Position numbers and translations under genes: made by a program
NCBI GenBank assembly: GCA_900550495.1
Contig: URSJ01000003.1
Span: 18,227-82,226 of the forward strand
Reading direction: 5' to 3'
DNA from: an uncultured Rickettsiales bacterium
GTDB lineage: Bacteria > Pseudomonadota > Alphaproteobacteria > Rs-D84
DNA length: 64,000 nucleotides
In this document: in pieces, positions 1 to 43,606 of the stretch
Layout of the letters: every line of letters begins with the position of its first letter
Position numbering within the stretch: the stretch's first letter is position 1
Notes under the pieces: generated by a model
What the model was told of the DNA's origin: nothing
The model's input: the letters and a program-made list of their open reading frames with translations, nothing else
Databases searched by the model: none

Positions 1-1
1 C

Positions 2-1210
2 GCCGCCCGGATTTATATACGTGAAAATGCAACGCAATTACCGTATAACGAAACAGTTATATCGGGTGATAAATTTGCCGACGTGTTGGAATCATATGGT
101 TTGCCGCTGGGGTTTGTTCCGCGCACCGCGTTAGGCCAGGATATTGCCTTGGTTATAAATCGTGATACAGAATCTGTATCGGCGTATCTGCGTATAACAG
201 GTGGCGATTTATCCGATGTGCAAATGGCGGAAATGGTTCGTCGAATTGGCTTTTATGCAGGCAGTGCTGATGGCGCTTTGCTGGTTGGAATTGCACTGGA
301 CGATGCGTATTCCGATGTTGTGCGCCGTAATGATACAGATTTGGATTCGGGCGCGTTTTTATCAGACTTGGATATGGGGGGGCATAATTTGAATAATGCG
401 TCTGATGTGCATATGCAAACTGGTGAATTTGAAACGGGTGAATTTACATCGCTGAGCCTGTTCGGCGTGGAAAGTGGGCGCAAGGTAAAAAATACAATCA
501 AAGAAATTACGGCCGACCGCGCAATATTCCAGAGCAGTGATGGCGCGTCCGCCCTGTCGGTAACCAAGGGCGAATTAAATCTGGCGTCATTGGATGCAAA
601 AACAATTTCGGCATTTGGTGATACGGGGAATTTTACAGCAACGTCTGGGGCAGTATATGATTTTGCAATGACGGCAGGGCGCACGGGATTTACTGGGCCG
701 GCAAATTGGAACGTTCGTGGCAATGTTGTTACCAGCAAGATAAATTTTTCGGTGGAACGTTTAGAAATAAACTCGTTCTTGAATGCGTCCCGCGGCCAGG
801 ACGTTTATATCAATTCTGATTCATTAGAATATTCTGCAAACAGTGGCATCAGCGTTGCAACCATTTCGGCGTCAAATATAACAATGCGTGACCAGACGTC
901 TGACGCTTTATCGCGTGGCGAAACGGGTGACGTGGTGCTTGATATTCGACCGGCCGGGACATCAATATTACCAGATGTTTTAATTACGGGAATTGATAAC
1001 AGTGCTGTTGACATTATCAGCAATCCCAGTGCTGATGATGGCGATATGGTCGCGTGCAAGAATATTATTGACCGATTAGATGGCGTTTATAACCAGAAGT
1101 CGTTGGCCCAGTATATAATATGCCAGTATTATTTTTGGCAGCGTCTGGAACAGCGTATTGATATAAAACAATGTTTGTTAAACGGTGGGGGTAATTGTGA
1201 ACGGAACTAG
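2..1210 (+). CDS. Giant pilin-like/fibre-like paralogue 1, 5'-partial (continues upstream of window)
   Basis: The frame of ORF 83..1210 has no in-frame stop back to nt 2. The protein is Asn/Thr/Gly/Val-rich. Motif LDMGGHNLNN (nt 368-397) is shared with the next two ORFs. Confidence 0.6.
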   Translation, partial: AARIYIRENATQLPYNETVISGDKFADVLESYGLPLGFVPRTALGQDIALVINRDTESVSAYLRITGGDLSDVQMAEMVRRIGFYAGSADGALLVGIALDDAYSDVVRRNDTDLDSGAFLSDLDMGGHNLNNASDVHMQTGEFETGEFTSLSLFGVESGRKVKNTIKEITADRAIFQSSDGASALSVTKGELNLASLDAKTISAFGDTGNFTATSGAVYDFAMTAGRTGFTGPANWNVRGNVVTSKINFSVERLEINSFLNASRGQDVYINSDSLEYSANSGISVATISASNITMRDQTSDALSRGETGDVVLDIRPAGTSILPDVLITGIDNSAVDIISNPSADDGDMVACKNIIDRLDGVYNQKSLAQYIICQYYFWQRLEQRIDIKQCLLNGGGNCERN

Positions 1211-2396
1211 GATTTTTTCCGACAGCGCACGTGGTACCAGCATGACCGAGGTTATATTGGCCATGGCGATTGTTGCGATTGTGACGCCGTTTCTGTATAC
1301 ACAAATCAACGACGCTACCGACAATGTTCGTGATATGGCCACGGCACGTGATATCATTGCGTTGCGTGGGAACGTGCTGAATTATGTTCGCACGAACCAA
1401 GACAAATGGCCAGATGTTGCGCAAATTAAACTGGCCGATGATGAACTGGCAGAAATATCAGAATCAGCAGCGACAGGATTTATTGATAAATATGCTGTAA
1501 ATGGCGCAACGGTTACAGATGTTTATTTGGCATTTGATACAGATTTAGATATGTTGCGCACAACGCGTATCGCGCGCCACATTGGCATGGATGCGGCTGT
1601 TGTGTCTGATGATGGGGTGGCGTATGGTGCGTCGTGGGCGGTTTCTGCACCGGATTTTCGTTCTGGGCAATTGATTTATCGGGTGACGCGTGATGTCGCC
1701 GGAATTGATACATCAAAATATTTGCACAGGACATCATCAGATGACGAAGGTCTAAATGTTATGCAACGTGATTTGAATATGGGCACAAATGGGCTGTTTA
1801 ACATTGGGGCGGCGATTGCAAAGTCTGCGCGGATAAAAAATGTGGCGGCAATATTTGCCGATGCTCATGAAATATCTGCTAATACAATATATTTTCCAAT
1901 GGGCTCGAATATGGACGCGGCTGATGTGAATATTGGTGCAATGCGTGTCACGGGCGACGTTACCGGATTTCGTAATATCACAGCCGACAATATGAATGGC
2001 ACGTCATATACAACGCGTGGGCGTATTGTAACTGATCGCGCGTCGGTTACAGGCTCGGTCAATGTGGCCAAGGATTTTGTCCTGAAATCAGATTCAACCC
2101 GCACGGTCAGTGGTTTTGCCGGAATATCTGCAAATACTGTTCGGACCCCATACGTATCCGCCACAGAAATGACGTTTTTTGAAAATTTTGGTTTAACGGT
2201 GTCGGGCGAATTGCTGATGTCAACGACCGCGCCACTGAAAATCGGGAATTGGACATTTCCATCAACGGTCCCGCCCCAGTTCAGCACATTGACATTTGAA
2301 CGTGCAATAATTCCTGCCGCCCCGGTGCGCAGTGCGTTTGGTGTGCTGATGCAATCTGGGTGGAAATCGGCCATGCCAAAGGATGTGCAACCATGA
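1185..2396 (+). CDS. Giant pilin-like paralogue 2 (degenerate prepilin-type N-terminus)
   Basis: The N-terminus ..SARG/TSMTEVILAMAIVAIVTPFLY has a Gly, a Glu at +5 and a long hydrophobic helix. It carries motif LNMGTNGLFN. Internal ATG 1242 would remove the leader. The stop overlaps the next start (ATGA at 2393-2396). Confidence 0.6.
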   Translation: MGVIVNGTRIFSDSARGTSMTEVILAMAIVAIVTPFLYTQINDATDNVRDMATARDIIALRGNVLNYVRTNQDKWPDVAQIKLADDELAEISESAATGFIDKYAVNGATVTDVYLAFDTDLDMLRTTRIARHIGMDAAVVSDDGVAYGASWAVSAPDFRSGQLIYRVTRDVAGIDTSKYLHRTSSDDEGLNVMQRDLNMGTNGLFNIGAAIAKSARIKNVAAIFADAHEISANTIYFPMGSNMDAADVNIGAMRVTGDVTGFRNITADNMNGTSYTTRGRIVTDRASVTGSVNVAKDFVLKSDSTRTVSGFAGISANTVRTPYVSATEMTFFENFGLTVSGELLMSTTAPLKIGNWTFPSTVPPQFSTLTFERAIIPAAPVRSAFGVLMQSGWKSAMPKDVQP

Positions 2397-3697
2397 TGAA
2401 ATCAAAACGTATTTTTTTGATTGCGCCCCAGCGTGGCGGCATGCTGATGGAATTATTGCTGACGGTTGCACTGGCCGCGATGATAATCCCGTTCTTGTTC
2501 CGATACCAGGCCCGCGCGACGGCGCGCGCCGAAAATATCGTCATTGCGCGCGAAATGGAAAATATACAGACGGCACTGGAACGTTACATCGTCGCCAAAC
2601 GTGAGGATTTATTACGTCCTGTGGGCAAGAATATCACGCGCGTCGAATTGTCTGATTTATACGATTTTGGTTTGAATACAAATCTGGCCGACACAAAGCG
2701 TCAATATCAATTGCGCATTTTAAAGACCGCGCAACGTGGTGGTAAATCAACGTTACAGGGTGTCATTGTCATGTCTGACGCCGATATGACCCCAATGCGT
2801 ACACGCGAAATTGTGTCAACCGGCGCGGGCCAGATTGGGTTTGTTGATAACGCGCGCACATACGGTGCATTTAATTCGTTCCGTACGGATAATATTGATT
2901 TGGGGATTACTGCATCAAGTGGTATTGTTGCCACGACCCCAGTTAACCGTGATAATGCACTATATTTGTGGCGCGTGCCATCAAATGATGCGCGGGATGC
3001 AACGATGCAGGCGGGATTAAACCTGGGGGGGCACGATGTCAAAAACACGACGTTCTTTGATGCCACAAATGCGACAATGAATTCGGGGCTGACAATCGGG
3101 CGTGCGGTTACAACTAATCTGGTATTTCAAACGCGACCAACAATTGACGGGGTGTTCGATGTCAAAAACGCAACGGTCATGGGCACGATGTCATCTGATG
3201 CGCGGTCAATGCAAGTGTCGGGTGGGCTGAAATTATCTGATGTTGGCAAGTTTTCTTTGTTTACGGTAAACGATCTGTGGGTGACGAATTTGACGTTGTC
3301 AGGTCTGTCTATCGGTGGCAGCAGAAAAGCCGCCGTCTTGCATGTAAATGATTCCGTTGATATGACTGGTGGGCGTATTAATGCGATATACGTAACGGTT
3401 GGATTTGCCGGGTCAATAACGCCGCGCCTGGTGGTCAGCAAACGTATCCAGGATTCGGTAAATTCAGATTATTATTGGGATGCGAGTGGTAACACAGCGC
3501 ATTTTATGGACGCAATACTGAAAAATTTGAACGATATGGCAGGGTATGCTGCGCGTGATACGCGTGGCAGCACGGTTTCATACCAACTGTTTGCACCAAT
3601 TGCGACAAACAAAAATGCAACGGTTTCGGATTACCTTAACGCGTTGCGTGAAATCCAGACGCGCGTCACTGCGAAATATAGCCAGTTGAATTTGTAA
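2393..3697 (+). CDS. Giant pilin-like paralogue 3 (degenerate prepilin-type N-terminus)
   Basis: MMKSKRIFLIAPQRGG/MLMELLLTVALAAMIIPFLF has a basic leader, Gly, Glu at about +5 and a hydrophobic helix. It carries motif LNLGGHDVKN. Start set at ATG 2393 (ATGA overlap) rather than track start 2360. Confidence 0.6.
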   Translation: MMKSKRIFLIAPQRGGMLMELLLTVALAAMIIPFLFRYQARATARAENIVIAREMENIQTALERYIVAKREDLLRPVGKNITRVELSDLYDFGLNTNLADTKRQYQLRILKTAQRGGKSTLQGVIVMSDADMTPMRTREIVSTGAGQIGFVDNARTYGAFNSFRTDNIDLGITASSGIVATTPVNRDNALYLWRVPSNDARDATMQAGLNLGGHDVKNTTFFDATNATMNSGLTIGRAVTTNLVFQTRPTIDGVFDVKNATVMGTMSSDARSMQVSGGLKLSDVGKFSLFTVNDLWVTNLTLSGLSIGGSRKAAVLHVNDSVDMTGGRINAIYVTVGFAGSITPRLVVSKRIQDSVNSDYYWDASGNTAHFMDAILKNLNDMAGYAARDTRGSTVSYQLFAPIATNKNATVSDYLNALREIQTRVTAKYSQLNL

Positions 3698-3719
3698 TAA
3701 TTTGTGGTATAAAAAAATC

Positions 3720-4235
3720 ATGAAAATAAAATGCGAATTTTGCAAGACAGAATATTCCGGGCAATTTCCCGCGGCCGTGCCGGTAAAGTGCGCGGTCTGT
3801 GGACATACGTGGGTGCCGCCACGGGCAAACCGGCGTGGGCCGCTGATGGTGTTGTTGGCGTCGTTGTGTGCACTTTTGTCGGCGATTGTGTTCACTATTG
3901 CCGTTGTCGCACGTCACCAGATTGATGCGGCGTCAACGGGGCCGTTGGTTGCACGCGCGACGGCTGTGCGAACTGTTTTAGACGAGGCAGGTAACACTCG
4001 TTTGACAGTTGATGGTATTGTTGAAAATGTATCTGGTGAAATTTACGGTGTTCCAGATTTGATTGTTGTTGCATATGACGCACATGACAATGTTATCGCA
4101 CAACAGAAATTTATGCCGACGGCAACGCTGTTAGATGCGGGCGGACACAGTCAATTTTCGTATACAATGTCAATATCACCAATGGGTGTGCGACGCGTGT
4201 CGGTGCGTTTGGCCACAGGGGGGACAGTAAAATGA
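3720..4235 (+). CDS. ZitP-like zinc-finger membrane protein (MJ0042-type zinc ribbon + TM + DUF3426-like domain)
   Basis: MKIKCEFCKTEY..VKCAVCGHTW gives CxxC-x15-CxxC. A TM segment follows (LMVLLASLCALLSAIVFTIAVV), then a C-terminal beta-rich domain with the DUF3426-like pattern (LTVDGIVENVSG..PDLIVVAYD..LDAGGHSQF). ATG 3720 preferred over TTG 3702. Confidence 0.7.
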   Translation: MKIKCEFCKTEYSGQFPAAVPVKCAVCGHTWVPPRANRRGPLMVLLASLCALLSAIVFTIAVVARHQIDAASTGPLVARATAVRTVLDEAGNTRLTVDGIVENVSGEIYGVPDLIVVAYDAHDNVIAQQKFMPTATLLDAGGHSQFSYTMSISPMGVRRVSVRLATGGTVK

Positions 4236-4696
4236 AAAAAATAATATCAGCAATATTTGCGATGTTTTTGTCGGCGCAGTGCATTGCCGGTGATGCACCC
4301 GTTGTTAAACGAGTCAGTATTTTTTCAACCAGCACAGATTGGCAGGCGGTAACAGGTTTGGACCTGAATCAATACACAGCGACATTTCGTCCTGATTCAA
4401 GATTGATTGGTCGTCAGGGATTGATTTTATATTACTTGGACGCATTTCCGTGTTATGGCCTGGCGTATGGGGTCCGTGTGTGGTTGGGGCCAAACGGTAA
4501 AAATGATGGCGCGTTACAAATCGCATGTGTTGCCGCACCGACCGAAATTCATTTTGCGTATCGCAATGCCACCCGTGACGCAGACCAGGCAACGACCACA
4601 GGAATATTGACGTGTCCGGTAGCCGGTCGCACGCGTGAACTGACAATTGATTTGTCGCGTTGCACCGTTGGACCCGATTGGCCAGAATATAAATAG
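4232..4696 (+). CDS. Secreted protein of unknown function
   Basis: Signal peptide MKKIISAIFAMFLSAQCIAG. ATGA overlap with the preceding gene (4232-4235). The antisense ORF 4314..4781 has no such features. Confidence 0.6.
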   Translation: MKKIISAIFAMFLSAQCIAGDAPVVKRVSIFSTSTDWQAVTGLDLNQYTATFRPDSRLIGRQGLILYYLDAFPCYGLAYGVRVWLGPNGKNDGALQIACVAAPTEIHFAYRNATRDADQATTTGILTCPVAGRTRELTIDLSRCTVGPDWPEYK

Positions 4697-4704
4697 GTGT
4701 TTTT

Positions 4705-5664
4705 ATGAACGAAATTCGCGAATTTATCACAGATGATGCTGCCGCTGGCGTGCGCCTGGACAAATTTCTAGCGGATAACATGTCCGACTTTTCTCGCAGC
4801 GAGATTCAGCGTTTCCCAATAACCTTGAATGGGACGTCTGCGCGTATGGCAACACGTCTGCGTTCTGGGGACAAAATCACAGTTGAAATTCCTGCACCCA
4901 AGACAGATGTTGCCGCCGAAAACATATCGTCTGATTTTGATTTGGATATTTTATACGAAGATGATGATATTATTGTTATCAATAAACCGCGTGGCGTGGT
5001 GATGTATCCGTCGGCTGGAAACAAGACAAAGACACTGGTTCAGAATATTTTGGCGCACTGTAATTTGTCGCTGTTGGGTGGCGCGACGCGTCCGGGGGTT
5101 GTGCATCGTCTGGACAAGGATACCAGTGGCGTTATGGTCTTTGCCAAATCTGACGCGGCATTTCGTGGGTTGGTAAAAATATTTTCCAGTCACGATTTAA
5201 TTCGTCGCTATGTTGCGTTTGTGTGGGGCGTGCCGAATTGGGACGGCGCAGACATAACGGGAAATATTGCCCGTTCGTCCCGTAATCGCCAGAAAATGAC
5301 CATGGTGAAATCTGGGGGAAAACCGGCCCATACCCAGGTGACTGTTATGTCGGTTTGGCCACGTGCAGGCTGTGCGGCGTTGCGTTGCAATTTGCTGACG
5401 GGGCGCACGCACCAGATACGCGTCCATCTGTCGTCGCATGGATTCCCGGTTTTGTGTGACCCGGTCTATGGTCGCGGGACAAATCGCCTGGCGTCGGTGC
5501 GCGATGGCGAATTGCTGGATTTCTTAAAGGCCCATAATGGTCAAATGTTGCATGCAGAATACCTGGAATTTGCCCATCCGGTAACAGGCATACGTATGCA
5601 TTTTAAATCGCGCCTGCCAAATGACATGAATGAATTGCGGTGTATTTTGGACGAAATTGGATAA
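4705..5664 (+). CDS. rluD: RluA-family 23S rRNA pseudouridine synthase (RluD-like), S4 domain at N-terminus
   Basis: Catalytic motif HRLDKDTSGVMVFAKS, plus ..TGRTHQIRVHL.. and an N-terminal S4-like RLDKFLA. Confidence 0.85.
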   Translation: MNEIREFITDDAAAGVRLDKFLADNMSDFSRSEIQRFPITLNGTSARMATRLRSGDKITVEIPAPKTDVAAENISSDFDLDILYEDDDIIVINKPRGVVMYPSAGNKTKTLVQNILAHCNLSLLGGATRPGVVHRLDKDTSGVMVFAKSDAAFRGLVKIFSSHDLIRRYVAFVWGVPNWDGADITGNIARSSRNRQKMTMVKSGGKPAHTQVTVMSVWPRAGCAALRCNLLTGRTHQIRVHLSSHGFPVLCDPVYGRGTNRLASVRDGELLDFLKAHNGQMLHAEYLEFAHPVTGIRMHFKSRLPNDMNELRCILDEIG

Positions 5665-5747: not shown

Positions 5748-5773
5748 AAACCATAAATAATGGAGTGGACAGG

Positions 5774-8700
5774 ATGAGTTTTCTGAATAAATCTATCAGT
5801 TTTGTTGCTGTTTTGGCATGCACATCTGCGGCTTTTGCGGTTACCGCACGCCCCAGTGTGATTGGCAATGCAATGCGTCGCATGCCGACGATGACGACAT
5901 CGGCGGGTGTGATTTCTGGCACAACGACGACAACGACATCCAATTTATTGGCAAATGCTGAATGTATTGACGCATACACCTCGTGCCTGAAAGGGGCAGA
6001 TGCGTGTGGCCCGAATTTCGAAGAATGCACAACACGCGTTTTGTTCCACGGCAAAATGCCACAATGTCTGTCCACATTGGCCCAGTGCAACACATCTGGG
6101 ATAAACAGTTTGTTCGGAACGTCCAGCACGACCGCATTGTCCAACGTCGCAACCAAGAATACGTATGGCGAGGTTACAGATTACACATACCCAACCGATG
6201 GCAGTGTCTTGGGCCAGTTGATTATCGGTGCGGCAATCTCTAATAAATATGACACATCGACTTGTGTAAAACGTTACACGTCTTGTTTAAAAAAGGACAA
6301 CGTTTGCGGTGCGGATTTTGAATTGTGCACAACGAACGCCGAATTCAGAAAGCAAATGGTGTATTGCGATTCTACATTGGCGCGGTGCCAATCAGATGGC
6401 AAGATTGAATTATTTGGTTCAACAAACACATCTGTATCGCCCAGCGCGACCAGCCGTATTGGCGAAATGATTTCCGAAGGGGCGTCCTTGGCGGCAATAA
6501 ATGCCGTATCCACTTGCTACAAGGTTGTTGACCAATGTATATTGAATGCATGTGCAGAAAATCCATATAAATGCTATGAAAACGCGTCAACCCAGACTGC
6601 CCAGTTGGTAACTGACATCAATTCCGGTAACGCCGATTCAACTGCGGGCGCGGCAATCACTGTTTCAGACAGTGTCAGCACATCTGCGATTGCGGCATAC
6701 ATCAAGAACTCTTGTATGGATACCATTGGTTCCAACAAATATTGCTATGCAACATTCTTGGGTAATGGCGCAATGCCAACGGCGTCCCAATTAAAGGACG
6801 AAGACAACCAAGAAGAAGTTTATGACGAGGCATATTCGTCCCGAATGAACAGCGCGATGAAGGCCAAAATTGCCGACCTGGTCGATAAATTTGATACCAA
6901 GGCCAAGGCAAAGTGCACCGACACAATCAAAACATGCGCAATGCGTGTTTGCGGTGGCGGTAATGGCGCAGCATGTTATTCCCAGGTATTTGGTGCAACT
7001 GACAAATCAATCAACAACGCGGTCAGCTATCAGGAAATCAAGACTGGATGCGCAGCGGTTGTGAATACTGATTTGTTTTGTAAATATTCGGCAATGAATC
7101 CGAATGCAACAGGGTCATACTCTTATTCATATATAAACAATGATGCATTTGACACATTGTTCCCTGAATACCAGGCTGGTGCCGCCGACCCAATCGGCGT
7201 TATCGCGACATTGAACGCATCATTAGCGAATTCTTACAGTGATGCTGCTATCGCCCAGATGAAAAAACAGTGTCAGGCTGTCGCAACCAGTTGCGTAAAA
7301 TCCATGTGCGGCACCGATTATGTAAATTGTTACCGCAACAGAACAGATATTTATTCCAATCTGACCAGCACGGGCGACAGTTCATTTGATAAATCAATGA
7401 ACAAGGTTGGTGGTGTTCTGGATTACACAATTGTGTTAGGACTGTGTATGGATACGGTTAAAAACGCATCTGTATGCGAACAGCATTTGGCAATTGAACA
7501 AAATAAATTGAAAATCGCAGGTAAATCAAATACAGGTGCGTGGGGCGATGCCACCAGTGTGCGCAGTGGTTGGATTGATGCCGGCGGTGCAACCGCGGTA
7601 ACGGCGGATACTGAAACTGTTCAGGCATACGATGAAAACGGTAATGCGTTGTGTAGTGCCAAAAATGGCGACCAGGGCACATGTAACACTGTTGACGATA
7701 ATGGCAACGTGTTTGATACGCCGGTTATGATTTCTTACACAACATATCTGCAGTCCCAGGCGGCAACATCATTGTTCAAAGATTTAATCTATGACATTGA
7801 AAAAGAAGCCCAGGCGAAATATAACGCCAAGTTGACCAAGGAACAGAATATGTGCATGTCCAGTAATGCTGGCGGTGTATTGGGTAATCGTGATACAGGC
7901 AGCACATATATGTGGGCAAAACTGAAATCAAACAAAGTTCCAAAGAACTATGCGGTCAATGGATTAAAGCCCAGCCAGTTCGCGGCCAGCAATGATTTGT
8001 ATGGTTCGTTCTGCCGTGTGCGTGTGACCTTGCAATCTGATGACAAACGTATCCAGGATACAATTAGAAAAGGCACAGATTGGTCTGTTGCATACTTTGC
8101 CGTCGGTGACAGTTTTACCTGTGGCAGTTGGATACCCCGCGATGCATTGGAAAAGATTGCCAATGCGGTCGCAGATAATGCAACCGCAGACAAGGCCGCA
8201 TCTCAATCCAGAACGCGTGGTTGGTTGACGGCGTTGGGCGTGCTTGGGTTCGGTGCTGGTGGCGCAGTCTTGGGCAGCAATATTCAAAGTGGTAAAGCCT
8301 TGGGTAGTCTGACAGGATTGAACAGTAACAAGGATACAAACACAGAAAGATTTATCAAAATCTGTGAAGACAGAGCCAAAACTGCTATGACTTCGGGCAT
8401 CAGCAAAGATGCACAAATTACTGCGGCTAACGAGGCAATAGTCGCAGCCAGCAGATTGGATTTAGATACCACTGATGCAGCAAGTCGTGTTGACGCACTT
8501 AGTAAAAAAACAAGTAGTTACGATAAAGAATCTTCCGCTTTAAGCACGGCCATGAGAAATCTGTCTTTATCGTGCAGTAAAAAAGACAGCGACGATAACA
8601 ATGATAACGAAAAGAAAAACAATACATTGTTGGGCACATCCATTGGCACAGTTGTGAGCAGTGTTGCCGGTGGTATCTTGATTAATAAATTGGTCGGCGA

Positions 8701-8842
8701 TATCCAGAAAACTAGCCTGGATTCTGCACAAAAGGCTGCATACGAAGAATGGATGAATAACGTCGGTCGTCATATTTCCTGCTATGTCGGTGGTGACGAG
8801 GCCGGTGAATACGGTGACATAATTACCACCAGCATTGAATAA
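5774..8842 (+). CDS. Giant secreted Cys-rich (CX6C-module) protein with two C-terminal Gly-rich hydrophobic segments
   Basis: Signal peptide MSFLNKSISFVAVLACTSAAFA. Many C-x6-C-x3-5-C modules. A ~52-aa module is duplicated exactly 100 aa apart (nt 5963-6418). Hydrophobic segments at ~8219-8285 and ~8628-8699. Confidence 0.75.
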   Translation: MSFLNKSISFVAVLACTSAAFAVTARPSVIGNAMRRMPTMTTSAGVISGTTTTTTSNLLANAECIDAYTSCLKGADACGPNFEECTTRVLFHGKMPQCLSTLAQCNTSGINSLFGTSSTTALSNVATKNTYGEVTDYTYPTDGSVLGQLIIGAAISNKYDTSTCVKRYTSCLKKDNVCGADFELCTTNAEFRKQMVYCDSTLARCQSDGKIELFGSTNTSVSPSATSRIGEMISEGASLAAINAVSTCYKVVDQCILNACAENPYKCYENASTQTAQLVTDINSGNADSTAGAAITVSDSVSTSAIAAYIKNSCMDTIGSNKYCYATFLGNGAMPTASQLKDEDNQEEVYDEAYSSRMNSAMKAKIADLVDKFDTKAKAKCTDTIKTCAMRVCGGGNGAACYSQVFGATDKSINNAVSYQEIKTGCAAVVNTDLFCKYSAMNPNATGSYSYSYINNDAFDTLFPEYQAGAADPIGVIATLNASLANSYSDAAIAQMKKQCQAVATSCVKSMCGTDYVNCYRNRTDIYSNLTSTGDSSFDKSMNKVGGVLDYTIVLGLCMDTVKNASVCEQHLAIEQNKLKIAGKSNTGAWGDATSVRSGWIDAGGATAVTADTETVQAYDENGNALCSAKNGDQGTCNTVDDNGNVFDTPVMISYTTYLQSQAATSLFKDLIYDIEKEAQAKYNAKLTKEQNMCMSSNAGGVLGNRDTGSTYMWAKLKSNKVPKNYAVNGLKPSQFAASNDLYGSFCRVRVTLQSDDKRIQDTIRKGTDWSVAYFAVGDSFTCGSWIPRDALEKIANAVADNATADKAASQSRTRGWLTALGVLGFGAGGAVLGSNIQSGKALGSLTGLNSNKDTNTERFIKICEDRAKTAMTSGISKDAQITAANEAIVAASRLDLDTTDAASRVDALSKKTSSYDKESSALSTAMRNLSLSCSKKDSDDNNDNEKKNNTLLGTSIGTVVSSVAGGILINKLVGDIQKTSLDSAQKAAYEEWMNNVGRHISCYVGGDEAGEYGDIITTSIE

Positions 8843-9563: not shown

Positions 9564-10793
9564 TTATGGACATTGAGCCAATTGATACATTACATTTTGG
9601 ACGTCGTTGTTTACTGATACCGTAATCTCGCGCCCCAGGCCGTCGGTGTATGTATAATTAAACTTGGCATCTTTGAATTCTGGGACGGCCGCGTATGCGT
9701 CATTAAACGGTGCCAGCATTGCATTAAACCACTGGCGTCCACGACACAGACAACCGTTGCGAACATCGGCCGCCACCGCCGCTGTTGATGTGTTTGGATA
9801 TTTCGTATCCAATTCATTGTCGGTCATCATCAGGCAACGTGTGCCAAATCCGTAAAAGTTTGCGTCATCTGCCATAAATTTATAGACCAGACCATCAGAC
9901 GCCCCTGCACGGCGCAATGAATACGCCATGCCATCAGTGCAACACGCACGTGCCGAATTCAGCAACATTTTATACCGGGCCAGCAACGGTGCCGCCGCCG
10001 GATTTGATGCGTCAATATTTGCGTCGCAACGCGCCGCGTCAACGAATTCCGCCATACGGACATCTTGTATTTTACGACTGCGTGGGGCAACAGCCTCGCG
10101 CATGATGGGTTTGCGGCGCCAAATATCGCATTCGGCATCAGTATCAAACGGGCAACCGTCACTGCGCCCAAATACAGTTTGAACTGTTTCAGTCATATCC
10201 TGGGCAGTGTATGTGGCGCGTGGTGCAACCGTGTTATTCGTCCACAGATTATCCTGGGGCCTTTGTGGCGTCAATAATTCTTCTATACGTGCGCGTGTTG
10301 CGATTGCGTCGTTCATATTCTGATTATACATCTGGACAGCAATATCGGGCGTGGCCTGGATATCTTGTTCATAAATTTCTGGTAACGGTTCCAAGAACCA
10401 GTCTGAAAAATCCTTGTCCCGATACGAAACAATGGAATCGTCCCAGATTGGCACGCCATCACGCCAATCCACGGTTTTATCATATCCGCGTGATTGGTAT
10501 TTTTCGTGTGTTCCGTCCCATAACGGTGCGCGATTATCCGGCGCAACCGGTTTCACAGATAACATCTTGACCTGGCGCATAGGAATTTGGTCGGCATAGA
10601 AGTATTCCACAGGCTGACTGTATTCAGCGATTGGCGTTTGGATTATTCCCAATTGGCGCGGTTCAGATACAGTAACCTGGCGCGTATCCATTTGTTCAAT
10701 ATCACAGCCAGTGCCGATGCAGTCTGACGCACGCGCTACATTTGTCCCGAATAAACATACCAGGGACGATAAAATTGCAATCTTGGTATTCAT
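9564..10793 (-). CDS. Secreted Cys-rich protein of unknown function
   Basis: Signal peptide MNTKIAILSSLVCLFGTNVARA, then SDCIGTGCD. Multiple Cys pairs (ACCTDG, CLCRG, terminal QCP). Start set at ATG 10793. Confidence 0.65.
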   Translation of the reverse strand: MNTKIAILSSLVCLFGTNVARASDCIGTGCDIEQMDTRQVTVSEPRQLGIIQTPIAEYSQPVEYFYADQIPMRQVKMLSVKPVAPDNRAPLWDGTHEKYQSRGYDKTVDWRDGVPIWDDSIVSYRDKDFSDWFLEPLPEIYEQDIQATPDIAVQMYNQNMNDAIATRARIEELLTPQRPQDNLWTNNTVAPRATYTAQDMTETVQTVFGRSDGCPFDTDAECDIWRRKPIMREAVAPRSRKIQDVRMAEFVDAARCDANIDASNPAAAPLLARYKMLLNSARACCTDGMAYSLRRAGASDGLVYKFMADDANFYGFGTRCLMMTDNELDTKYPNTSTAAVAADVRNGCLCRGRQWFNAMLAPFNDAYAAVPEFKDAKFNYTYTDGLGREITVSVNNDVQNVMYQLAQCP

Positions 10794-10800
10794 ACTCTGA

Positions 10801-10811
10801 ATAATATCACA
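10801..10811 (-). promoter_or_regulatory. Extended -10 element TGTGATATTAT, 7 nt upstream of ATG (leaderless candidate)
   Basis: Reverse complement of ataatatcaca. The -10 hexamer ends 7 nt before ATG 10793 and there is no Shine-Dalgarno. Confidence 0.45.
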
Positions 10812-10922
10812 AAAATGCACATGTTTGAACAGGTTTTTGCGGAAAAACGTTTTTTACTTGTTGTCGCGTTGTTGTTCCGCTAGTATTAGGAATGTAGTCA
10901 ATATATAACCCCAGGAGAAAAA

Positions 10923-12395: not shown

Positions 12396-13898
<1,503 letters not shown>

Positions 13899-13941
13899 AT
13901 AGAGAATACCGTTTACACGAAAACGGTCAAATCCAAACGCG

Positions 13942-13958
13942 ACTGTCTGAATATCTCT
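13942..13958 (+). other. 3' half of the 16S processing stem
   Basis: Complementary to 12205-12221. Confidence 0.6.
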
Positions 13959-13982
13959 TTTTGATGTGGGAATCTTTCTGCT

Positions 13983-14059
13983 GGGTCAGTAGTTCAGTTG
14001 GTTAGAATGCCGCTCTGATACAGCGGAGGTCGAAGATTCGAGTTCTTCCTGACCCACCA
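13983..14059 (+). tRNA. tRNA-Ile (anticodon GAU) in the 16S-23S spacer
   Basis: Cloverleaf GGGTCAG..CTGACCC-A-CCA. Anticodon arm CCGCT-CTGATAC-AGCGG. T-loop TTCGAGT. Confidence 0.95.
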
Positions 14060-14364
14060 CTTAAATTTGATGAGGTTGGAATCAGAAATGATTTAATCAT
14101 TTTTGATTCCAGATGTTCCATGATGAATATCGTCGGAATCTGCTTTTATAGCAATACATTGTGAATCGGTTTTTATGTCGCAAATCATAAAGTTTATAGA
14201 AATATGAATTTCTTGATTTGTTGAACATCGTAATAATCTCAAAAATCTTTCTATAAGAGTAATCACGAAAGTGATAATTCAATTAGAGAACAAGAATCAA
14301 CTTAAATGCTTAAAAAACTCATTAAGTTATTTTACTGTGCATGAAGACTTTCTCTTCAAGCATA

Positions 14365-17118
<2,754 letters not shown>

Positions 17119-17208
17119 TTTTGTCTTGACTTGATAACAAGTCAAGCGTATGCTTGAAGAGAACGTTGAAGTGATTCTGATACAGAATTACGATGTTCGC
17201 TGGATTTA

Positions 17209-17324
17209 TTCTGGTGATTATTGAGCGGGAGTCACCCTCTGTTCCATTCCGAACCAGACAGGGAAACCTCGTATCGCCGATGGTACTTTGGCTTAAGCCA
17301 CGGAAGAGTAGGTCGTCGCCAGAA
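17209..17324 (+). rRNA. rrf: 5S ribosomal RNA
   Basis: ..CCATTCCGAACCAGA..GCCGATGGTACT..AGAGTAGG.. The terminal helix pairs TCTGGTGA with TCGCCAGA. Confidence 0.9.
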
Positions 17325-17412: not shown

Positions 17413-19216
17413 TTTAAGAAAAACTTTACAAAATGAACAAAAGTTTACAAAAAACATTGCAAAATGATTTTGTAAAGATTATGATATGAAAAAGGGTTGG
17501 CGTATGGAAGTGTCTTATGAATATTTGAGAGAAATGATTGGTTCAAAAGAAACGTTGTTTGTTGAATGGAAGTCAGACGATAACAACACCTTTAATGATT
17601 CTGTCTTGGTAAATTCATGTGTAGCATTGGCAAATGCAGAGGGGGGACAGCTGTTTATAGGTATAAGAGATTGTACTGGAGAAATAATAGGAAGTAAAAA
17701 AGCTCAGTTAAATAATGCTAATGAAAGAGCTTTGGAAGGATTGATTCGTTCTAGAACGATGCCAAATTTAAATGTTGATGTCATGTTTTTAAATTTACCT
17801 GACGGAAAAATAATCGTGAGAGTTGTTGTCCCTAAGGCCATTACAGTGATCGGAACAACAGATGGCAGATATTTAAAACGAGAAATTCTGCCAAGTGGTG
17901 AACCCAGTAACAAGCCAATGACACCAGATGAAATTTTTAGAAATACTACGAGTATTGGTTTTGTTGATCTATCTGCAAATATCATGTCAGGATTACATAT
18001 GGATGATATTGATATTGAATTAGTAGAAAATAGCATACGAGATGTTTTGAAAAAAGATTTGAAAGAGGAAGAAATCGCTATTTTTTCACAAGAACCGATA
18101 AATGTTTTAAAAACTTTGGGATTGGTGAATTCTGACAATATACCAAATATAGCCGCGGTGTTGTTGTTTGGAAAAGAGGAATCTTTGAAGGAAAAATTTC
18201 CAAATCATTTTGTCCAATATCAGGTCTTTGGATCGCAAGGAGAAGTGTTAAAAAATGAAAAATATTCGTTACCTATCATCAAGTTGTTGCCAAAGTTATT
18301 GGTAATGCCGGAGTTATTGAAAAATACAGATGAGTTTTTAGTAAATGCTCAAAGTCTGGTTGTACCTGAATATGCTCCTGATGCGATAAGAGAAGCCTTT
18401 GCAAACGCTATAGTCCACAGAGATTATAGTTTGTATTCAGGAATTCAGATACAAGTATTTAACGATGAATTAAACATTACAAGTGCAGGAGGTTTTGTGA
18501 AGGGGGTTTCTTTACAAAATTTGTTACGTACGCCTCCTATACCACGGAATCGCCGTTTGGCAGATGCCATGAAAGCGTTAAAGCTGGTCGAAACATCAGG
18601 TAGGGGAATAGATAAAATATATTACTTTCAAGCAAAGTATGGACGCCCCGCGCCAGACTATTCCGCATCAACTGAGAACCATGTTATTGTCAATATCTGT
18701 GGAGGAAAGGCAAATTTAGATTTTTGTAAATTTGTCTTTAGCATTAGTGACGAAATACATTTGTTTGATATGTTAATTTTAAATTACTTGTTTTATCAGC
18801 GTAGTGCAACAATGGCGCAACTGGCGTCTCTTGTCCAGTCATCAGAAATGGAGGTTCGTAGAATAACTCGAAGGTTGCTAGAAAAGAATTTGATAGAAGT
18901 GGTAGATGAAGGTAATCCTTTGTTTTTTTTAAAGGGTATGGCACCAAAGAATAAAATACGTTTAAGGGATAGTAATATTTCTGAGTATGAAAATAGTATC
19001 CAAAATTTATTGAAAGAGCATGATAAATTAAGTAGAAATGATATTGCAAAGTATATAGGTTTGTCTCCTGCTCAAACATATAGAGTATTGCTAAAAATGC
19101 AAGCGAGTGGCAAGGTTGTTATGACCGGGTATCGTTGGAAAGCGCAACAAATCTTTTTATAATCTTTTTAATATGATTTTTATAAAGATTTCTTAGAAAA
19201 ATAAAGATGCGCATCT
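17413..19216. mobile_element. More AT-rich insertion between the 97-bp direct repeats (no recognisable mobility gene)
   Basis: The segment is bounded by the duplicated 5S-3'end/terminator sequence, looks more AT-rich than its flanks, and carries a single ORF. Confidence 0.5.
17504..19162 (+). CDS. Schlafen/AlbA_2 (divergent AAA) + HATPase_c_4-type putative DNA-binding ATPase/regulator (RecG-C-terminal-like family)
   Basis: ETLFVEWKS..VALANAEGGQLFIGIRD..GEIIG (AlbA_2 pattern). IREAFANAIVHRDYS..ITSAGGF..PRNRRLADAM..ETSGRGIDKIY (HATPase_c_4 pattern). C-terminal wHTH-like region. Start ATG 17504 has AAGGG upstream; track start 17486 is also possible. Confidence 0.75.
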   Translation: MEVSYEYLREMIGSKETLFVEWKSDDNNTFNDSVLVNSCVALANAEGGQLFIGIRDCTGEIIGSKKAQLNNANERALEGLIRSRTMPNLNVDVMFLNLPDGKIIVRVVVPKAITVIGTTDGRYLKREILPSGEPSNKPMTPDEIFRNTTSIGFVDLSANIMSGLHMDDIDIELVENSIRDVLKKDLKEEEIAIFSQEPINVLKTLGLVNSDNIPNIAAVLLFGKEESLKEKFPNHFVQYQVFGSQGEVLKNEKYSLPIIKLLPKLLVMPELLKNTDEFLVNAQSLVVPEYAPDAIREAFANAIVHRDYSLYSGIQIQVFNDELNITSAGGFVKGVSLQNLLRTPPIPRNRRLADAMKALKLVETSGRGIDKIYYFQAKYGRPAPDYSASTENHVIVNICGGKANLDFCKFVFSISDEIHLFDMLILNYLFYQRSATMAQLASLVQSSEMEVRRITRRLLEKNLIEVVDEGNPLFFLKGMAPKNKIRLRDSNISEYENSIQNLLKEHDKLSRNDIAKYIGLSPAQTYRVLLKMQASGKVVMTGYRWKAQQIFL

Positions 19217-19313
19217 TCGCCAGAATAAATCCAGTCTTGTTCCACATAGCCTTGGCGAAGTGGAATAGATATAAAAACCGAAATTTGACCGCCCACGTGG
19301 CGGTTTTTTGTTT
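19217..19313 (+). repeat. 97-bp direct repeat, copy 2
   Basis: See 17316-17412. Preceded by the 14-bp palindrome aagatgcgcatctt (19204-19217). Confidence 0.95.
19287..19313 (+). terminator. Duplicate copy of the rrn terminator
   Basis: Same hairpin and T-tract as 17386-17412. Confidence 0.75.
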
Positions 19314-19345
19314 GCCATTTGCGTGGTGCATGGTAAAATGTCAGT

Positions 19346-20185
19346 ATGAAAAAAATGGATGATAATTTTCGTGGCACGCGGGGCAGTTTGCCACCACAAC
19401 TGTTTAAATATATTGATATGTCAAGAATATCTCAGACGACGACAAAGTTTGTAGAGTATATGAATAAATTGGCAGATACGTTTCATCAAAATGTTAATCA
19501 TGATGATGCGTTTGCTAGCATTAGAAATACAAAATTGAATGCCCCCGACTTGTTTGGTCAATGTGTCAAATTGCGCTATATTGACAGTGGTATAAGTGGC
19601 AGCGTATATGAAATGCGCATCGGAGACCAATGTTTTGCGTTCAAGATAAACCGTTCATCGTATTCGGACATCAGTGAATTGGAAACAATGCATTTCCAGA
19701 AAAAGGCGCGAAATTTATTAAATAAAATTTATATCGGTTCTACATTTGAATATGAAGGCAAAGTGTATTCGTGGTTATTGATGGATTATGTAGCCGCATC
19801 TAGTCAAGACACGTTTGATTTAGTGCGAGAGCGACTGTATTATGCAAATTTGACCAAGGGTTTGGTCTATGAAGACGTGTCCGAAGATAACCTGAGAAAT
19901 GGCAAGATTATTGACCGTGGCAATATGTGGCAACGTAAAATTCCTCTGGGGCGGACCGAAATAGACTTGGTCAAGAAACTGGTTTATGCCATGCGCACAG
20001 ATGATATGGTCGCGTTCGAGATATTGACATCACATGCGTTAACGTCATATCCGAAGGTTATAAATTACCTTACGATGTCGATGATGAATTTGCTGGGTGA
20101 AACGCCGGCCCGATTTAAAAAGTTCCGCGTCGTAATTTTTGATAAATCTAATATTATCAAGCAGGCAAAACACGCCGGCCGTTAA
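19346..20185 (+). CDS. Minimal protein-kinase-like fold protein
   Basis: Gly-loop IDSGISGSVY, Lys in CFAFKI, hinge LLMDYV, catalytic-loop-like YEDVSEDN (D-x4-N), DFG-like IIDRG. Confidence 0.55.
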   Translation: MKKMDDNFRGTRGSLPPQLFKYIDMSRISQTTTKFVEYMNKLADTFHQNVNHDDAFASIRNTKLNAPDLFGQCVKLRYIDSGISGSVYEMRIGDQCFAFKINRSSYSDISELETMHFQKKARNLLNKIYIGSTFEYEGKVYSWLLMDYVAASSQDTFDLVRERLYYANLTKGLVYEDVSEDNLRNGKIIDRGNMWQRKIPLGRTEIDLVKKLVYAMRTDDMVAFEILTSHALTSYPKVINYLTMSMMNLLGETPARFKKFRVVIFDKSNIIKQAKHAGR

Positions 20186-27994: not shown

Positions 27995-28029
27995 TTATGT
28001 TAACTTTGAACTTTTATGTAGCGGGGACT

Positions 28030-28040
28030 TGTGATATAAT
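28030..28040 (+). promoter_or_regulatory. Extended -10 element TGTGATATAAT
   Basis: The hexamer ends 10 nt before ATG 28051, so the leader is very short or absent. Confidence 0.5.
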
Positions 28041-28050
28041 TAGACAGAGA

Positions 28051-38445: not shown

Positions 38446-38476
38446 TACTCTAATTTTATTATAATTTATCTGTTCA

Positions 38477-38510
38477 ATTATATCACATTTGGGACAAAAT
38501 GTGATATACT
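38477..38510. promoter_or_regulatory. Back-to-back divergent extended -10 promoters forming a 12-bp-arm palindrome
   Basis: TATATCACATTT-gggaca-AAATGTGATATA (38479-38508). Minus strand reads TGTGATATAAT (38477-87); plus strand reads TGTGATATACT (38500-10), ending 7 nt before ATG 38518. Confidence 0.55.
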
Positions 38511-38517
38511 TTAAACG

Positions 38518-41409: not shown

Positions 41410-41436
41410 AATCACGCGCCACTGGCGCGTTTTTTA
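41408..41436 (+). terminator. Rho-independent terminator
   Basis: ACGCGCC-ACT-GGCGCGT followed by a T5 tract. Confidence 0.8.
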
Positions 41437-41497
41437 TACGAATTTTATGAATTATGGACACTTGCAAAGTTTGAATAAATATCTTAAACTTTGTGCT

Positions 41498-43546: not shown

Positions 43547-43566
43547 TTTTACAATTTGGCACGTTA

Positions 43567-43575: not shown

Positions 43576-43606
43576 CTCGTGTGTAAACCAACAAAGGGGC
43601 AATGAT

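What the first reader, a model, noticed from the sequence alone, without database searches (positions are those of the whole stretch)
2..3697. Three tandem, translationally coupled giant pilin-like paralogues sharing an L-x-x-G-G-H-x-x-x-N motif
ORFs 2..1210 (5'-partial), 1185..2396 and 2393..3697 are paralogous. All are Asn/Thr/Gly/Val-rich with short-strand periodicity. They share a motif: LDMGGHNLNN (nt 368-397) in ORF1, LNMGTNGLFN in ORF2 and LNLGGHDVKN in ORF3. ORF2 and ORF3 each start with a basic leader, a Gly, a Glu at about +5, and a 17-20-residue hydrophobic helix ending P-F-L-(Y/F) (RG/TSMTEVILAMAIVAIVTPFLY and RGG/MLMELLLTVALAAMIIPFLF). That is a degenerate class-III (prepilin-peptidase) signal. 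The mature parts are about 380-410 aa, far larger than ordinary pilins or pseudopilins. No pilB/C/D, secretin or tad genes are in the window. These could be fibre or tip subunits of an undescribed pilus-like appendage.
Basis: partly seen in the sequence, partly recalled or inferred. Interest (0 to 1): 0.7.

Follow-up and report, generated by a model that had tools for sequence, protein, structure and literature searches.

The report
Three tandem PilV-like minor pilin genes
Three neighbouring genes in a tiny-genome gut alphaproteobacterium (Candidatus Enterousia group) encode large pilin-like proteins distantly related to PilV, the tip adhesin of plasmid conjugative type IV pili; the trio is core and strictly conserved, but no pilus-assembly genes were found near it.

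Summary
ORF1 (2..1210, 5'-partial), ORF2 (1185..2396) and ORF3 (2393..3697) overlap by 26 and 4 nt. Their N-terminal 200-270 residues are paralogous by profile comparison, although BLASTP detects only ORF2/ORF3.

The pilin reading is supported, and the family can be named. All three are remote relatives of PilV (Pfam Shufflon_N, PF04917), the 410-470 aa minor pilin and tip adhesin of IncI-type conjugative type IVb pili. hhalign against verified PilV proteins gives 99.7 % (ORF3), 98.7 % (ORF2) and 93.9 % (ORF1). ORF1 has Gln(+5).

What differs from PilV:
- No shufflon, and no variable C-terminus.
- A chromosomal core block, g1-g2-g3-ZitP-like-g5-rluD, kept in 79 of 80 species.
- The same triad occurs in other Alphaproteobacteria/Rickettsiales-labelled MAGs.
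- No pil, gsp or tad gene lies within 10 kb anywhere I looked.

Best reading: a heterotrimeric tip or priming module of a type IV filament. Whether the genome encodes a prepilin peptidase or assembly ATPase could not be tested here. I class it as a new variant of a known kind, of moderate interest.

The parts
2..1210 (+). g1 (ORF1), 5'-partial; the full protein is 457 aa. It is a PilV-like pilin-like protein with Gln at +5 and four conserved C-terminal Cys.
   Evidence: full-length orthologue N-terminus MKIVPRNQSG|NFLLQ. G10 and Q15 at least 90 % conserved; C407, C429, C446 and C454 invariant. hhalign vs PilV set 93.9 %, E 1.5e-7; vs ORF3 family 95.4 %.
368..397 (+). PilV-type signature motif in g1 (LDMGGHNLNN)
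   Evidence: Coordinates. Aligned in register with the PilV motif IDMGGN.L.N.
1185..2396 (+). g2 (ORF2), 403 aa, PilV-like pilin-like protein. Its start overlaps the end of g1 by 26 nt.
   Evidence: hhalign vs PilV set 98.7 %, E 1.7e-16; vs ORF3 family 98.0 %. Weak TIGR02532 prepilin-domain hit, E 0.16.
1185..1298 (+). g2 class-III-like signal. The leader is 17 aa ending in Gly (nt 1233-1235), Glu is at +5, and the hydrophobic helix ends PFLY.
   Evidence: In orthologues from 82 loci the pattern RG|ASxLE is kept, with one Asn exception seen.
1773..1802 (+). PilV-type signature motif in g2 (LNMGTNGLFN)
   Evidence: in register with PilV.
2393..3697 (+). g3 (ORF3), 434 aa, PilV-like pilin-like protein. 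Its ATG overlaps the g2 stop codon (ATGA).
   Evidence: hhalign vs PilV set 99.7 %, E 1.4e-25, 227 columns. Its profile retrieves verified PilV proteins from 1.84 billion representatives. The best tblastn hits in 7.3 Gb of plasmids are annotated pilV genes. AlphaFold2 model pLDDT 77.6.
2393..2500 (+). g3 class-III-like signal. The leader is 15 aa ending in Gly15 (nt 2435-2437), Glu20 is at +5, and the hydrophobic helix ends PFLF.
   Evidence: G15 and E20 are invariant in 62 orthologues. The window scan finds this site.
3017..3046 (+). PilV-type signature motif in g3 (LNLGGHDVKN)
   Evidence: G212 and H214 invariant. In register with PilV.
3720..4235 (+). g4, 171 aa: N-terminal zinc ribbon, one TM helix, and a periplasmic FxLYD/DUF3426-like domain. 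This is the ZitP-like architecture. It starts 22 nt after g3 and is probably co-transcribed.
   Evidence: Pfam Zn_ribbon_4 E 0.0019 and DUF3426 E 0.017, both below cutoff. NCBIfam FxLYD domain 25.8 bits, above the 23-bit cutoff; MJ0042 zinc finger E 0.0038. Junction. Follows g3 in all 80 species loci.
4232..4696 (+). g5, 154 aa, a secreted Cys-containing protein of unknown function. It overlaps the end of g4 and always follows it.
   Evidence: No Pfam or NCBIfam hit.
4705..5664 (+). rluD-like pseudouridine synthase, the last gene of the conserved block (context only)
   Evidence: PF00849 on the orthologous genes. Block order kept in 79 of 80 loci.

Best explanation
g1, g2 and g3 are diverged chromosomal relatives of PilV, the large minor pilin and tip adhesin of type IVb (IncI-type conjugative) pili.

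Proposed mechanism:
- Each protein is made as a prepilin with a short basic leader, inserted in the inner membrane by its N-terminal helix, and cleaved after the conserved Gly by a prepilin peptidase encoded elsewhere in the genome.
- The three products are made in fixed proportion from overlapping genes. They assemble through their N-terminal helices into a heterotrimeric cap or priming complex of a type IV filament (a pilus or a short pseudopilus).
- g1 lacks Glu5, so it would be the outermost subunit. Their distinct, conserved C-terminal halves would form the exposed tip.
- In these 0.75-1.0 Mb, probably partner-dependent gut Alphaproteobacteria (order Rs-D84, Candidatus Enterousia), the tip would mediate contact with a conserved ligand. 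That ligand could be a partner-cell surface, or DNA, since ComF and ComEC are present.

Shown: homology to PilV, the conserved class-III-like motif, the strict triad and its synteny.
Inferred: processing, heterotrimer formation, tip location, the existence of the filament, and the ligand.
For: Homology to PilV.
- The ORF3 profile, searched against 1.84 billion representatives, retrieves proteins that score E 1e-15 to 4e-74 on Pfam Shufflon_N.
- One of these is 58-65 % identical to annotated plasmid PilV.
- hhalign to that PilV set: 99.7 %, 98.7 % and 93.9 % for g3, g2 and g1.
- Direct tblastn of ORF3 against plasmids hits annotated pilV genes best (E 4e-3; 6 of 9 hits).
- The shared motif equals the PilV signature.

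Pilin features.
- Gly(-1) and Glu(+5) are invariant or near-invariant.
- An ORF3 profile search of the PDB hits only the pilin N-terminal helix, Geopilin, E 0.01.
- The AlphaFold2 model has helix 14-68 followed by a beta-sheet domain at pLDDT about 90.
- Four of the 51 distant relatives scanned (A3) hit the N_methyl prepilin motif.

Triad logic.
- Three tandem genes of this family recur in distant lineages: L085, L087, L088 and L089.
- g1 has Gln at +5 in three of those lineages. From my own knowledge of the GspK literature, the cap subunit GspK also lacks Glu5; I did not check this in a paper.
- Known tip and priming complexes are trimers: the GspI-J-K heterotrimer and the CofB and TcpB homotrimers (PMC7248040).
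- The genes overlap.

Extracytoplasmic location. g1 has four invariant C-terminal Cys.

Context.
- g4 has the architecture of ZitP. ZitP's periplasmic DUF3426 domain is required for Tad pilus biogenesis in Caulobacter (PMC5182063).
- ComF lies in the window, and ComEC lies about 8 kb beyond it in the same species. From established knowledge of transformation in diderms, DNA uptake normally depends on a type IV filament.
Against: - No prepilin peptidase, PilB/GspE/TadA-type ATPase, platform protein, secretin or candidate major pilin is in the 64-kb window, nor within 10 kb of the triad in about 90 loci (neighbours).
- A published survey of Rs-D84 genomes mentions type IV pili only for another lineage (PMC12306168). 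This is absence of mention, not a test.
- None of the three proteins reaches any Pfam or NCBIfam pilin model.
- Foldseek against PDB and BFVD gives nothing significant.
- Conservation is flat along all three proteins. PilV adhesins, by contrast, have variable C-termini.
- The middle third of the ORF3 model is only pLDDT 55-70.
Confidence: 0.5

Rival explanations
1. Exapted pilins that work without a pilus machine. The three proteins would stay anchored in the inner membrane by the uncleaved or cleaved N-terminal helix. They would form a periplasmic or trans-envelope complex with a housekeeping role, for example envelope organisation at a pole together with the ZitP-like g4. No polymerisation would occur.
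For: - No assembly genes near any of about 90 loci.
- Very small genomes, for which type IV pili were not reported (PMC12306168).
- Strict core synteny next to envelope genes (OmpA, Skp/OmpH, LpxD, FabZ upstream) and a ZitP-like gene downstream.
- Uniform, moderate conservation with no hypervariable part: 54-61 % median identity, similar to g4 and g5.
Against: - Gly(-1) and Glu(+5) are invariant over 60-80 species and persist in distant lineages. That is hard to explain without peptidase cleavage and helix-helix packing of the pilin type.
- Type IV pilus genes are commonly scattered around genomes (PMC9045228, for class IVa), so lack of linkage is weak evidence.
- ComF and ComEC are retained.
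Confidence: 0.25
2. Competence pseudopilus subunits. The triad would prime a short type IV filament whose job is DNA uptake for nucleotides, feeding ComEC and ComF. It would not be an adhesin for cell contact.
For: - A ComF/GntX-family gene lies at 48707-49447 (TIGR00201 E 1.4e-24; Pfam DZR_2).
- ComEC/Rec2 lies about 8 kb right of the window in the same species.
- The lineage has reduced metabolism and lacks standard transporters (PMC12306168).
Against: - ComEC and ComF are widespread, including in bacteria not known to be transformable (my own knowledge, not checked here).
- They are about 45-70 kb from the triad.
- The nearest relatives (PilV) are cell-surface adhesins, not DNA receptors.
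- No ComEA, secretin or ATPase was seen in the stretches examined.
Confidence: 0.15
3. A mobile-element PilV: a remnant of an IncI-like conjugative element or ICE whose thin pilus uses these proteins as mating adhesins.
For: The closest named relatives are plasmid PilV proteins.
Against: - The same chromosomal position between dnaX and rluD in 79 of 80 species.
- No rci recombinase, no sfx-like inverted repeats, and no variable 3' cassettes.
- No tra or pil genes nearby.
- GC content (46-49 %) matches the rest of the window.
Confidence: 0.02
4. Chance resemblance: ordinary signal-anchored periplasmic proteins whose N-termini merely look like class III signals.
For: - No direct Pfam or NCBIfam pilin hit.
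- No significant fold match.
Against: - Profile-profile probabilities of 94-99.7 % to verified PilV over 200-250 columns, including the globular domain and the signature motif, not only the helix.
- E 3e-12 to 9e-9 against a library of 1.84 billion proteins.
Confidence: 0.03

Closest known systems
PilV (Pfam PF04917 Shufflon_N), the minor pilin and tip adhesin of IncI1/IncI2 conjugative type IVb thin pili (R64, TP114)
   Same: - Similar size: 403-457 aa here, 414-458 aa in TP114 (PMC9045228).
- Prepilin-type N-terminus with Gly(-1) and Glu(+5), and a leader of 10-17 aa.
- Homologous N-terminal domain of about 230-270 aa, ending in the signature ...YLYR..VP..P.LN.M.T.(I/L)DMGGN.(I/L).N.
- A beta-rich region follows the motif.
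   Different: - Below every Pfam threshold on direct scan.
- Three paralogues in tandem instead of one gene.
- No shufflon, rci or variable C-terminus.
- Core chromosomal genes of a reduced genome, not plasmid genes.
- No linked pilL-U genes.
- g1 has Gln at +5.
- The C-terminal halves are unrelated to each other by BLASTP. The hhalign match to PilV ends at about residue 235-270.
CofB and TcpB, the large type IVb minor pilins that cap and prime CFA/III and TCP pili as homotrimers
   Same: A large minor pilin with a pilin domain followed by beta-rich domains, and a trimeric tip or initiator role (PMC7248040, PMC5207764). This is the functional model I propose.
   Different: - No sequence or fold match was detected. 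The ORF3 profile found no PDB hit except a pilin helix, and Foldseek gave nothing significant.
- A heterotrimer of three paralogues is proposed here, rather than a homotrimer.
- There is no adjacent pilus operon.
GspI-GspJ-GspK (T2SS) and PilV-W-X / FimU (T4aP) core minor-pilin tip complexes
   Same: Several different pilin-like subunits encoded together, forming a staggered cap that primes filament assembly (PMC7248040). One subunit lacks Glu5; for GspK this is from my own knowledge. g1 likewise has Gln5.
   Different: - No detectable homology beyond the N-terminal helix.
- The subunits here are two to three times larger.
- All three belong to one family (PilV-like).
ZitP (ZnR-TM-DUF3426), the polar organiser needed for Tad pilus biogenesis in Caulobacter. 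This comparison concerns the neighbouring gene g4 only.
   Same: The same domain order: a cytoplasmic CxxC...CxxC zinc ribbon, one TM helix, and a periplasmic DUF3426/FxLYD-like domain (PMC5182063).
   Different: - g4 is 171 aa against 311 aa for ZitP.
- The Pfam hits are below the gathering score.
- Orthology was not tested, because no ZitP sequence was at hand.
- No CpaM or PopZ homologue was looked for.

Membership tests
PilV / Shufflon_N (PF04917) | Scores at or above the Pfam gathering threshold on PF04917 | tested here: not met
   No Pfam family at E <= 1 for ORF1, ORF2 or ORF3.
PilV / Shufflon_N (PF04917) | Homology of the N-terminal constant region, by profile-level comparison | tested here: met
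   hhalign to six PF04917-positive proteins: g3 99.7 % (E 1.4e-25), g2 98.7 % (E 1.7e-16), g1 93.9 % (E 1.5e-7). The ORF3 profile retrieves PF04917-positive proteins at E 3e-12 to 9e-9 from 1.84 billion representatives. tblastn best hits are annotated pilV genes.
PilV / Shufflon_N (PF04917) | Signature ...LN.M.T.(I/L)DMGGN.(I/L).N at the end of the constant domain | tested here: met
   LDMGGHNLNN, LNMGTNGLFN and LNLGGHDVKN align in register with the PilV consensus. G212 and H214 are invariant in g3.
PilV / Shufflon_N (PF04917) | Variable C-terminus produced by a shufflon (sfx inverted repeats plus the Rci recombinase) | tested here: not met
   No strong inverted repeats in 1-5000. No recombinase among the neighbours. 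C-termini are as conserved as N-termini.
PilV / Shufflon_N (PF04917) | Encoded within a type IVb pil operon (pilN, pilQ, pilR, pilS, pilU) | tested here: not met
   None within 10 kb in about 90 loci. No GspE/PilB-type Walker A or A24 motif in 1.76 Mb of fetched DNA.
Type IV pilin superfamily (class III signal) | Gly at -1 and Glu at +5, followed by about 20 hydrophobic residues | tested here: met
   g3 has G15 and E20 invariant. g2 keeps the pattern, with one Asn exception seen in 82 loci. g1 keeps Gly but has Gln at +5.
Type IV pilin superfamily (class III signal) | Match to the N-methylation or prepilin cleavage models (PF07963, TIGR02532) | tested here: not met
   Only ORF2 hits TIGR02532, at E 0.16 and 11.9 bits against a cutoff of 16.3. 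Four of the 51 distant relatives do hit PF07963.
Type IV pilin superfamily (class III signal) | Pilin fold: a helix of about 53 residues (alpha-1) packed on an antiparallel beta-sheet | tested here: inconclusive
   The AlphaFold2 model of g3 has helix 14-68 plus five or six strands at pLDDT about 90. Foldseek finds no significant pilin match; pilins appear only at E > 6. The PDB profile search hits the Geopilin helix at E 0.01.
Type IV pilin superfamily (class III signal) | A prepilin peptidase (A24) and an assembly ATPase and platform in the same genome, with cleavage of the leader | not testable with these tools
   Only the window and 10-kb flanks could be read. 
Minor-pilin tip / priming complex (GspIJK-like, CofB/TcpB-like) | The subunits form a trimeric cap at the filament tip | not testable with these tools
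   No multimer prediction was available. Indirect support only: a constant triad, overlapping genes, and one subunit without Glu5.
ZitP (g4 only) | Zinc ribbon, TM helix and periplasmic DUF3426 | tested here: inconclusive
   Zn_ribbon_4 E 0.0019 and DUF3426 E 0.017 are both below the gathering score. The FxLYD domain is above its cutoff.

The most novel reading that the evidence does not exclude
Rs-D84 and related reduced-genome Alphaproteobacteria may have no canonical type IV pilus machinery at all: no PilB/C/D, no secretin and no major pilin. In that case the conserved PilV-like triad, together with the ZitP-like g4 and g5, would be a self-contained pilin-derived envelope or contact organelle. 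It would be assembled by an unknown route and used to attach to, or exchange material with, a partner cell.
Probability: 0.15. Interest if true: 0.8.

Novelty: new variant of a known kind. Interest (0 to 1): 0.5.

Why it matters
Rs-D84 / Candidatus Enterousia are widespread, uncultured gut Alphaproteobacteria. Their genomes are 0.75-1.0 Mb, they lack respiration and standard transporters, and a partner-dependent life has been proposed for them (PMC12306168). How they contact partners is unknown.

A strictly conserved, co-translated trio of PilV-like pilins gives a concrete candidate for that contact or uptake apparatus. It also extends the PilV family from plasmid mating adhesins to core chromosomal genes of Rickettsiales-like lineages.

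For type IV filament biology, the trio would be a natural case in which the homotrimeric CofB/TcpB-type cap has been replaced by three paralogues. If the genomes prove to lack assembly machinery, it would show pilins working outside a pilus.

Tried and rejected
- Direct Pfam and NCBIfam scans of the three proteins gave nothing usable.
- BLASTP of ORF1 against ORF2 and ORF3 was not significant. Profiles were needed.
- The first AlphaFold2 model (62 close orthologues) was poor, at pLDDT 62. A more diverse alignment raised it to 77.6.
- Foldseek of both models against the PDB, and of the second against BFVD, gave no match at E <= 0.001. Structure therefore neither confirms nor refutes the pilin fold.
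- The third large protein search, with a profile of distant g3-type proteins, returned only two sequences. It did not help to name the other lineages.
- Cluster look-ups named only 'Rickettsiales bacterium' and 'Alphaproteobacteria bacterium' MAGs.
- The Enterousia genome paper of 2023 is not held, and the 2025 paper has no supplements held.
- A shufflon was looked for and not found.
- I checked whether the five tandem membrane proteins at 33-40 kb were VirB6/TrbL-like, which would have linked PilV-like adhesins to a type IV secretion system. There was no family hit, so I dropped the idea.
- The mobile-element origin was rejected on synteny.

Full report
**What is in the sequence**

The left end of the window carries three + strand genes: g1 (ORF1, 2..1210, 5'-partial), g2 (ORF2, 1185..2396) and g3 (ORF3, 2393..3697). 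g2's GTG start lies 26 nt inside the end of g1. g3's ATG overlaps g2's TGA as ATGA. A fourth gene starts 22 nt after g3.

The N-termini of g2 (...SARG|TSMTEVILAMAIVAIVTPFLY) and g3 (...QRG|GMLMELLLTVALAAMIIPFLF) are as described. A six-frame scan of all 64 kb for this kind of signal finds only these two sites. The Asn/Thr/Gly/Val enrichment is real but mild: 29-32 % against 23-26 % in housekeeping proteins.

**The missing N-terminus and the surroundings**

A 97 %-identical locus (L001) and a 57 %-identical one (L003) show that g1 is 451-457 aa. It begins MKIVPRNQSG|NFLLQALLALTCVFAFMPFF, which is the same design as g2 and g3 but with Gln at +5.

- Upstream lie a small minus-strand gene, dnaX, and OmpA, Skp/OmpH, LpxD and FabZ.
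- Downstream lie g4, g5, rluD and a 1,022-1,056 aa protein with no Pfam hit; the window's 1,025-aa copy is Cys-rich.
- There are no pil, gsp or tad genes.

**Organism**

The window has an rRNA operon. g3 relatives occur in 173 stretches of the GTDB species collection. The best 80 are MAGs labelled Alphaproteobacteria, 'Rickettsiales' or Candidatus Enterousia, from human, ruminant, horse and chicken gut.

This is the order Rs-D84. It has genomes of 0.75-1.0 Mb, no flagella, no respiration and no standard transporters, and a partner-dependent life has been suggested (PMC12306168).

**Paralogy**

- BLASTP links g2 and g3 (E 1e-5, about 200 aa) but not g1.
- Family profiles link all three: g1/g3 95.4 % (E 1.7e-8, 207 columns), g2/g3 98.0 % (E 1.7e-13), g1/g2 87.1 % (E 4e-6).
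- The related part is the N-terminal 200-270 residues, ending at the shared motif. The C-terminal halves differ.

**What family it is**

Direct Pfam and NCBIfam scans are empty, apart from a sub-threshold prepilin-domain hit in g2.

A profile of 62 g3 orthologues was searched against 1.84 billion representative proteins. It found 352 proteins at E <= 0.001. The distant ones match only profile positions of about 10-270.

- Of 51 distant hits scanned, 11 hit Pfam Shufflon_N (PF04917, best E 3.8e-74) and 4 hit the N_methyl prepilin motif.
- One of them is 58-65 % identical to annotated 'shufflon system plasmid conjugative transfer pilus tip adhesin PilV'.
- hhalign of each family against six such PilV proteins gives 99.7 % (g3), 98.7 % (g2) and 93.9 % (g1).
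- tblastn of g3 against 7.3 Gb of plasmids puts annotated pilV genes on top: E 4-5e-3, 25 % identity over residues 1-241, and 6 of 9 hits.

So the motif is genuine and is the hallmark of a known family. PilV proteins are themselves 414-458 aa (PMC9045228), so the size is normal for this kind of minor pilin.

**Pilin features**

- Gly(-1) and Glu(+5) are invariant in g3 (G15, E20).
- They are kept in g2 orthologues, with one Asn exception seen in 82 loci.
- In g1, Gly is at least 90 % conserved and the +5 residue is Gln.
- The g3 profile's only PDB hits are pilin N-terminal helices (Geopilin, E 0.01).
- With a diverse alignment, AlphaFold2 gives pLDDT 77.6. The model has a 55-residue helix (14-68) and a beta-sheet domain at about 90, a beta-rich middle at 55-70, and three C-terminal helices at 85-90.
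- Foldseek finds nothing significant in the PDB or BFVD. The fold test is therefore inconclusive.
- g1 has four invariant C-terminal cysteines, which fits an extracytoplasmic location.

**The triad is the unit**

In the 80 species loci, the order g1-g2-g3-g4-g5-rluD is kept in 79; the 80th is cut by a contig end. Median identities to the window are 61 % (g1), 58 % (g2), 54 % (g3), 50 % (g4), 62 % (g5) and 73.5 % (RluD).

Distant relatives in other MAGs are again three tandem genes set among housekeeping genes:

| Locus | Protein lengths (aa) | Note |
|---|---|---|
| L085 | 469 / 455 / 489 | |
| L087 | 443 / 426 / 483 | 'Rickettsiales bacterium' |
| L088 | 469 / 446 / 482 | |
| L089 | 1203 / 1150 / 1092 | first gene is Shufflon_N-positive |

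. All of these carry G-x4-E/Q, and g1 has Gln in L087, L088 and Rs-D84. A flagellated alphaproteobacterial MAG has a single giant copy.

No shufflon is present, and conservation is flat along each protein. This is unlike the variable C-termini of plasmid PilV.

**Machinery**

- No assembly gene is in the window.
- No GspE/PilB-type Walker A or A24 GGGDxK motif occurs in 1.76 Mb of fetched loci.
- No further pilin-like N-terminus is in the window.

Circumstantial hints that a type IV filament exists:

- g4 has the ZitP architecture of zinc ribbon, TM helix and DUF3426/FxLYD-like domain. ZitP's periplasmic domain is required for Tad pilus assembly in Caulobacter (PMC5182063).
- A ComF-family gene is in the window, and ComEC lies about 8 kb beyond it in the same species.

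**Interpretation**

The three proteins are PilV-family pilin-like proteins (confidence about 0.9). How they work is inferred.

By analogy with the GspI-J-K heterotrimer and the CofB and TcpB homotrimers that cap and prime type IV filaments (PMC7248040), I propose the following. Three co-translated paralogues, one of them without Glu5, most likely form a heterotrimeric cap or priming complex. Its conserved C-terminal parts would bind a conserved ligand, either a partner-cell surface or DNA (confidence about 0.5).

The main rival is that they are exapted, non-polymerising, membrane-anchored envelope proteins (about 0.25). A whole-genome search for peptidase A24, T2SSE and T2SSF would decide between the two.

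A mobile-element origin and a chance resemblance are rejected.

**Verdict**

- Observation: confirmed.
- Interpretation: partly supported. The proteins are pilin-like and probably tip subunits, but they belong to a known family, and the appendage itself is unproven.
- Novelty: a new variant of a known kind.
- Interest: moderate. It would be higher if the genomes turn out to lack pilus machinery.

Noticed in passing
window 33238-39807: Five tandem genes for polytopic membrane proteins of similar size: 429, 478, 393 and 435 aa on the - strand, and 429 aa divergently on the + strand. None has a Pfam or NCBIfam hit. They resemble a paralogous membrane-protein array. I suspected VirB6/TrbL-like proteins, but nothing supports this.
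   Followed up: partly
window 5765-8842, 9564-10820 (-), 24960-27029, 27997-30363, 53346-54170 (-), 54115-55893 (-): Six signal-peptide-bearing, Cys-rich proteins of 274-1025 aa. They have Ser/Thr-rich N-terminal stretches and repeated C-x-x-C-like spacing, and no Pfam hit. This looks like a lineage-specific family of secreted or surface proteins that occupies a large share of the window.
   Followed up: partly
window 48707-49447 (+); L092:19265-21199 (-), about 8 kb beyond the right end of the window in the same species: A ComF/GntX-family protein (TIGR00201 E 1.4e-24; Pfam DZR_2) and a ComEC/Rec2 protein (PF03772; TIGR00360 above cutoff). DNA-uptake inner-membrane components are retained in a genome of about 0.9 Mb.
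   Followed up: partly
window 3720-4235 (+): A 171-aa protein with a zinc ribbon, one TM helix and an FxLYD/DUF3426-like domain. It has the architecture of the alphaproteobacterial polar organiser ZitP at about half the length, and it always lies directly after the triad.
   Followed up: partly
window 17486-20185: Just after the 5S rRNA gene lies a 558-aa Schlafen/AlbA_2 plus HATPase_c_4 protein and a 279-aa protein with no family hit. They sit in a low-GC stretch (36 % at 18-20 kb against about 46 % elsewhere). This may be an inserted defence-type island.
   Followed up: no
window 12397-17324: A complete rRNA operon: 16S at 12397-13898, one tRNA called in the spacer at 13983-14056, 23S at 14368-17117, and 5S at 17210-17324.
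   Followed up: no
L011 (CAVGNU010000002.1): A 102-kb contig carrying the Rs-D84 triad block is deposited under the name 'Bacteroides fragilis isolate ... cleanbin'. This is evidently a mislabelled or mis-binned MAG.
   Followed up: no
L089:10001-20383; L090:10001-13255: Giant members of the same family (1,084-1,203 aa) keep the PilV-like N-terminal 230 residues, for example QKGSMMVEALAMLGLI..., and then add about 800-1,000 further residues. They occur as a triad in L089 and as a single gene next to flagellar genes in L090.
   Followed up: partly
window 41399-47343: Cell-wall genes: a class A PBP at 41399-43546, then a MraY-like gene, an FtsW/RodA-family gene and MurG at 43977-47343. The lineage therefore keeps peptidoglycan synthesis despite its reduced genome.
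   Followed up: no
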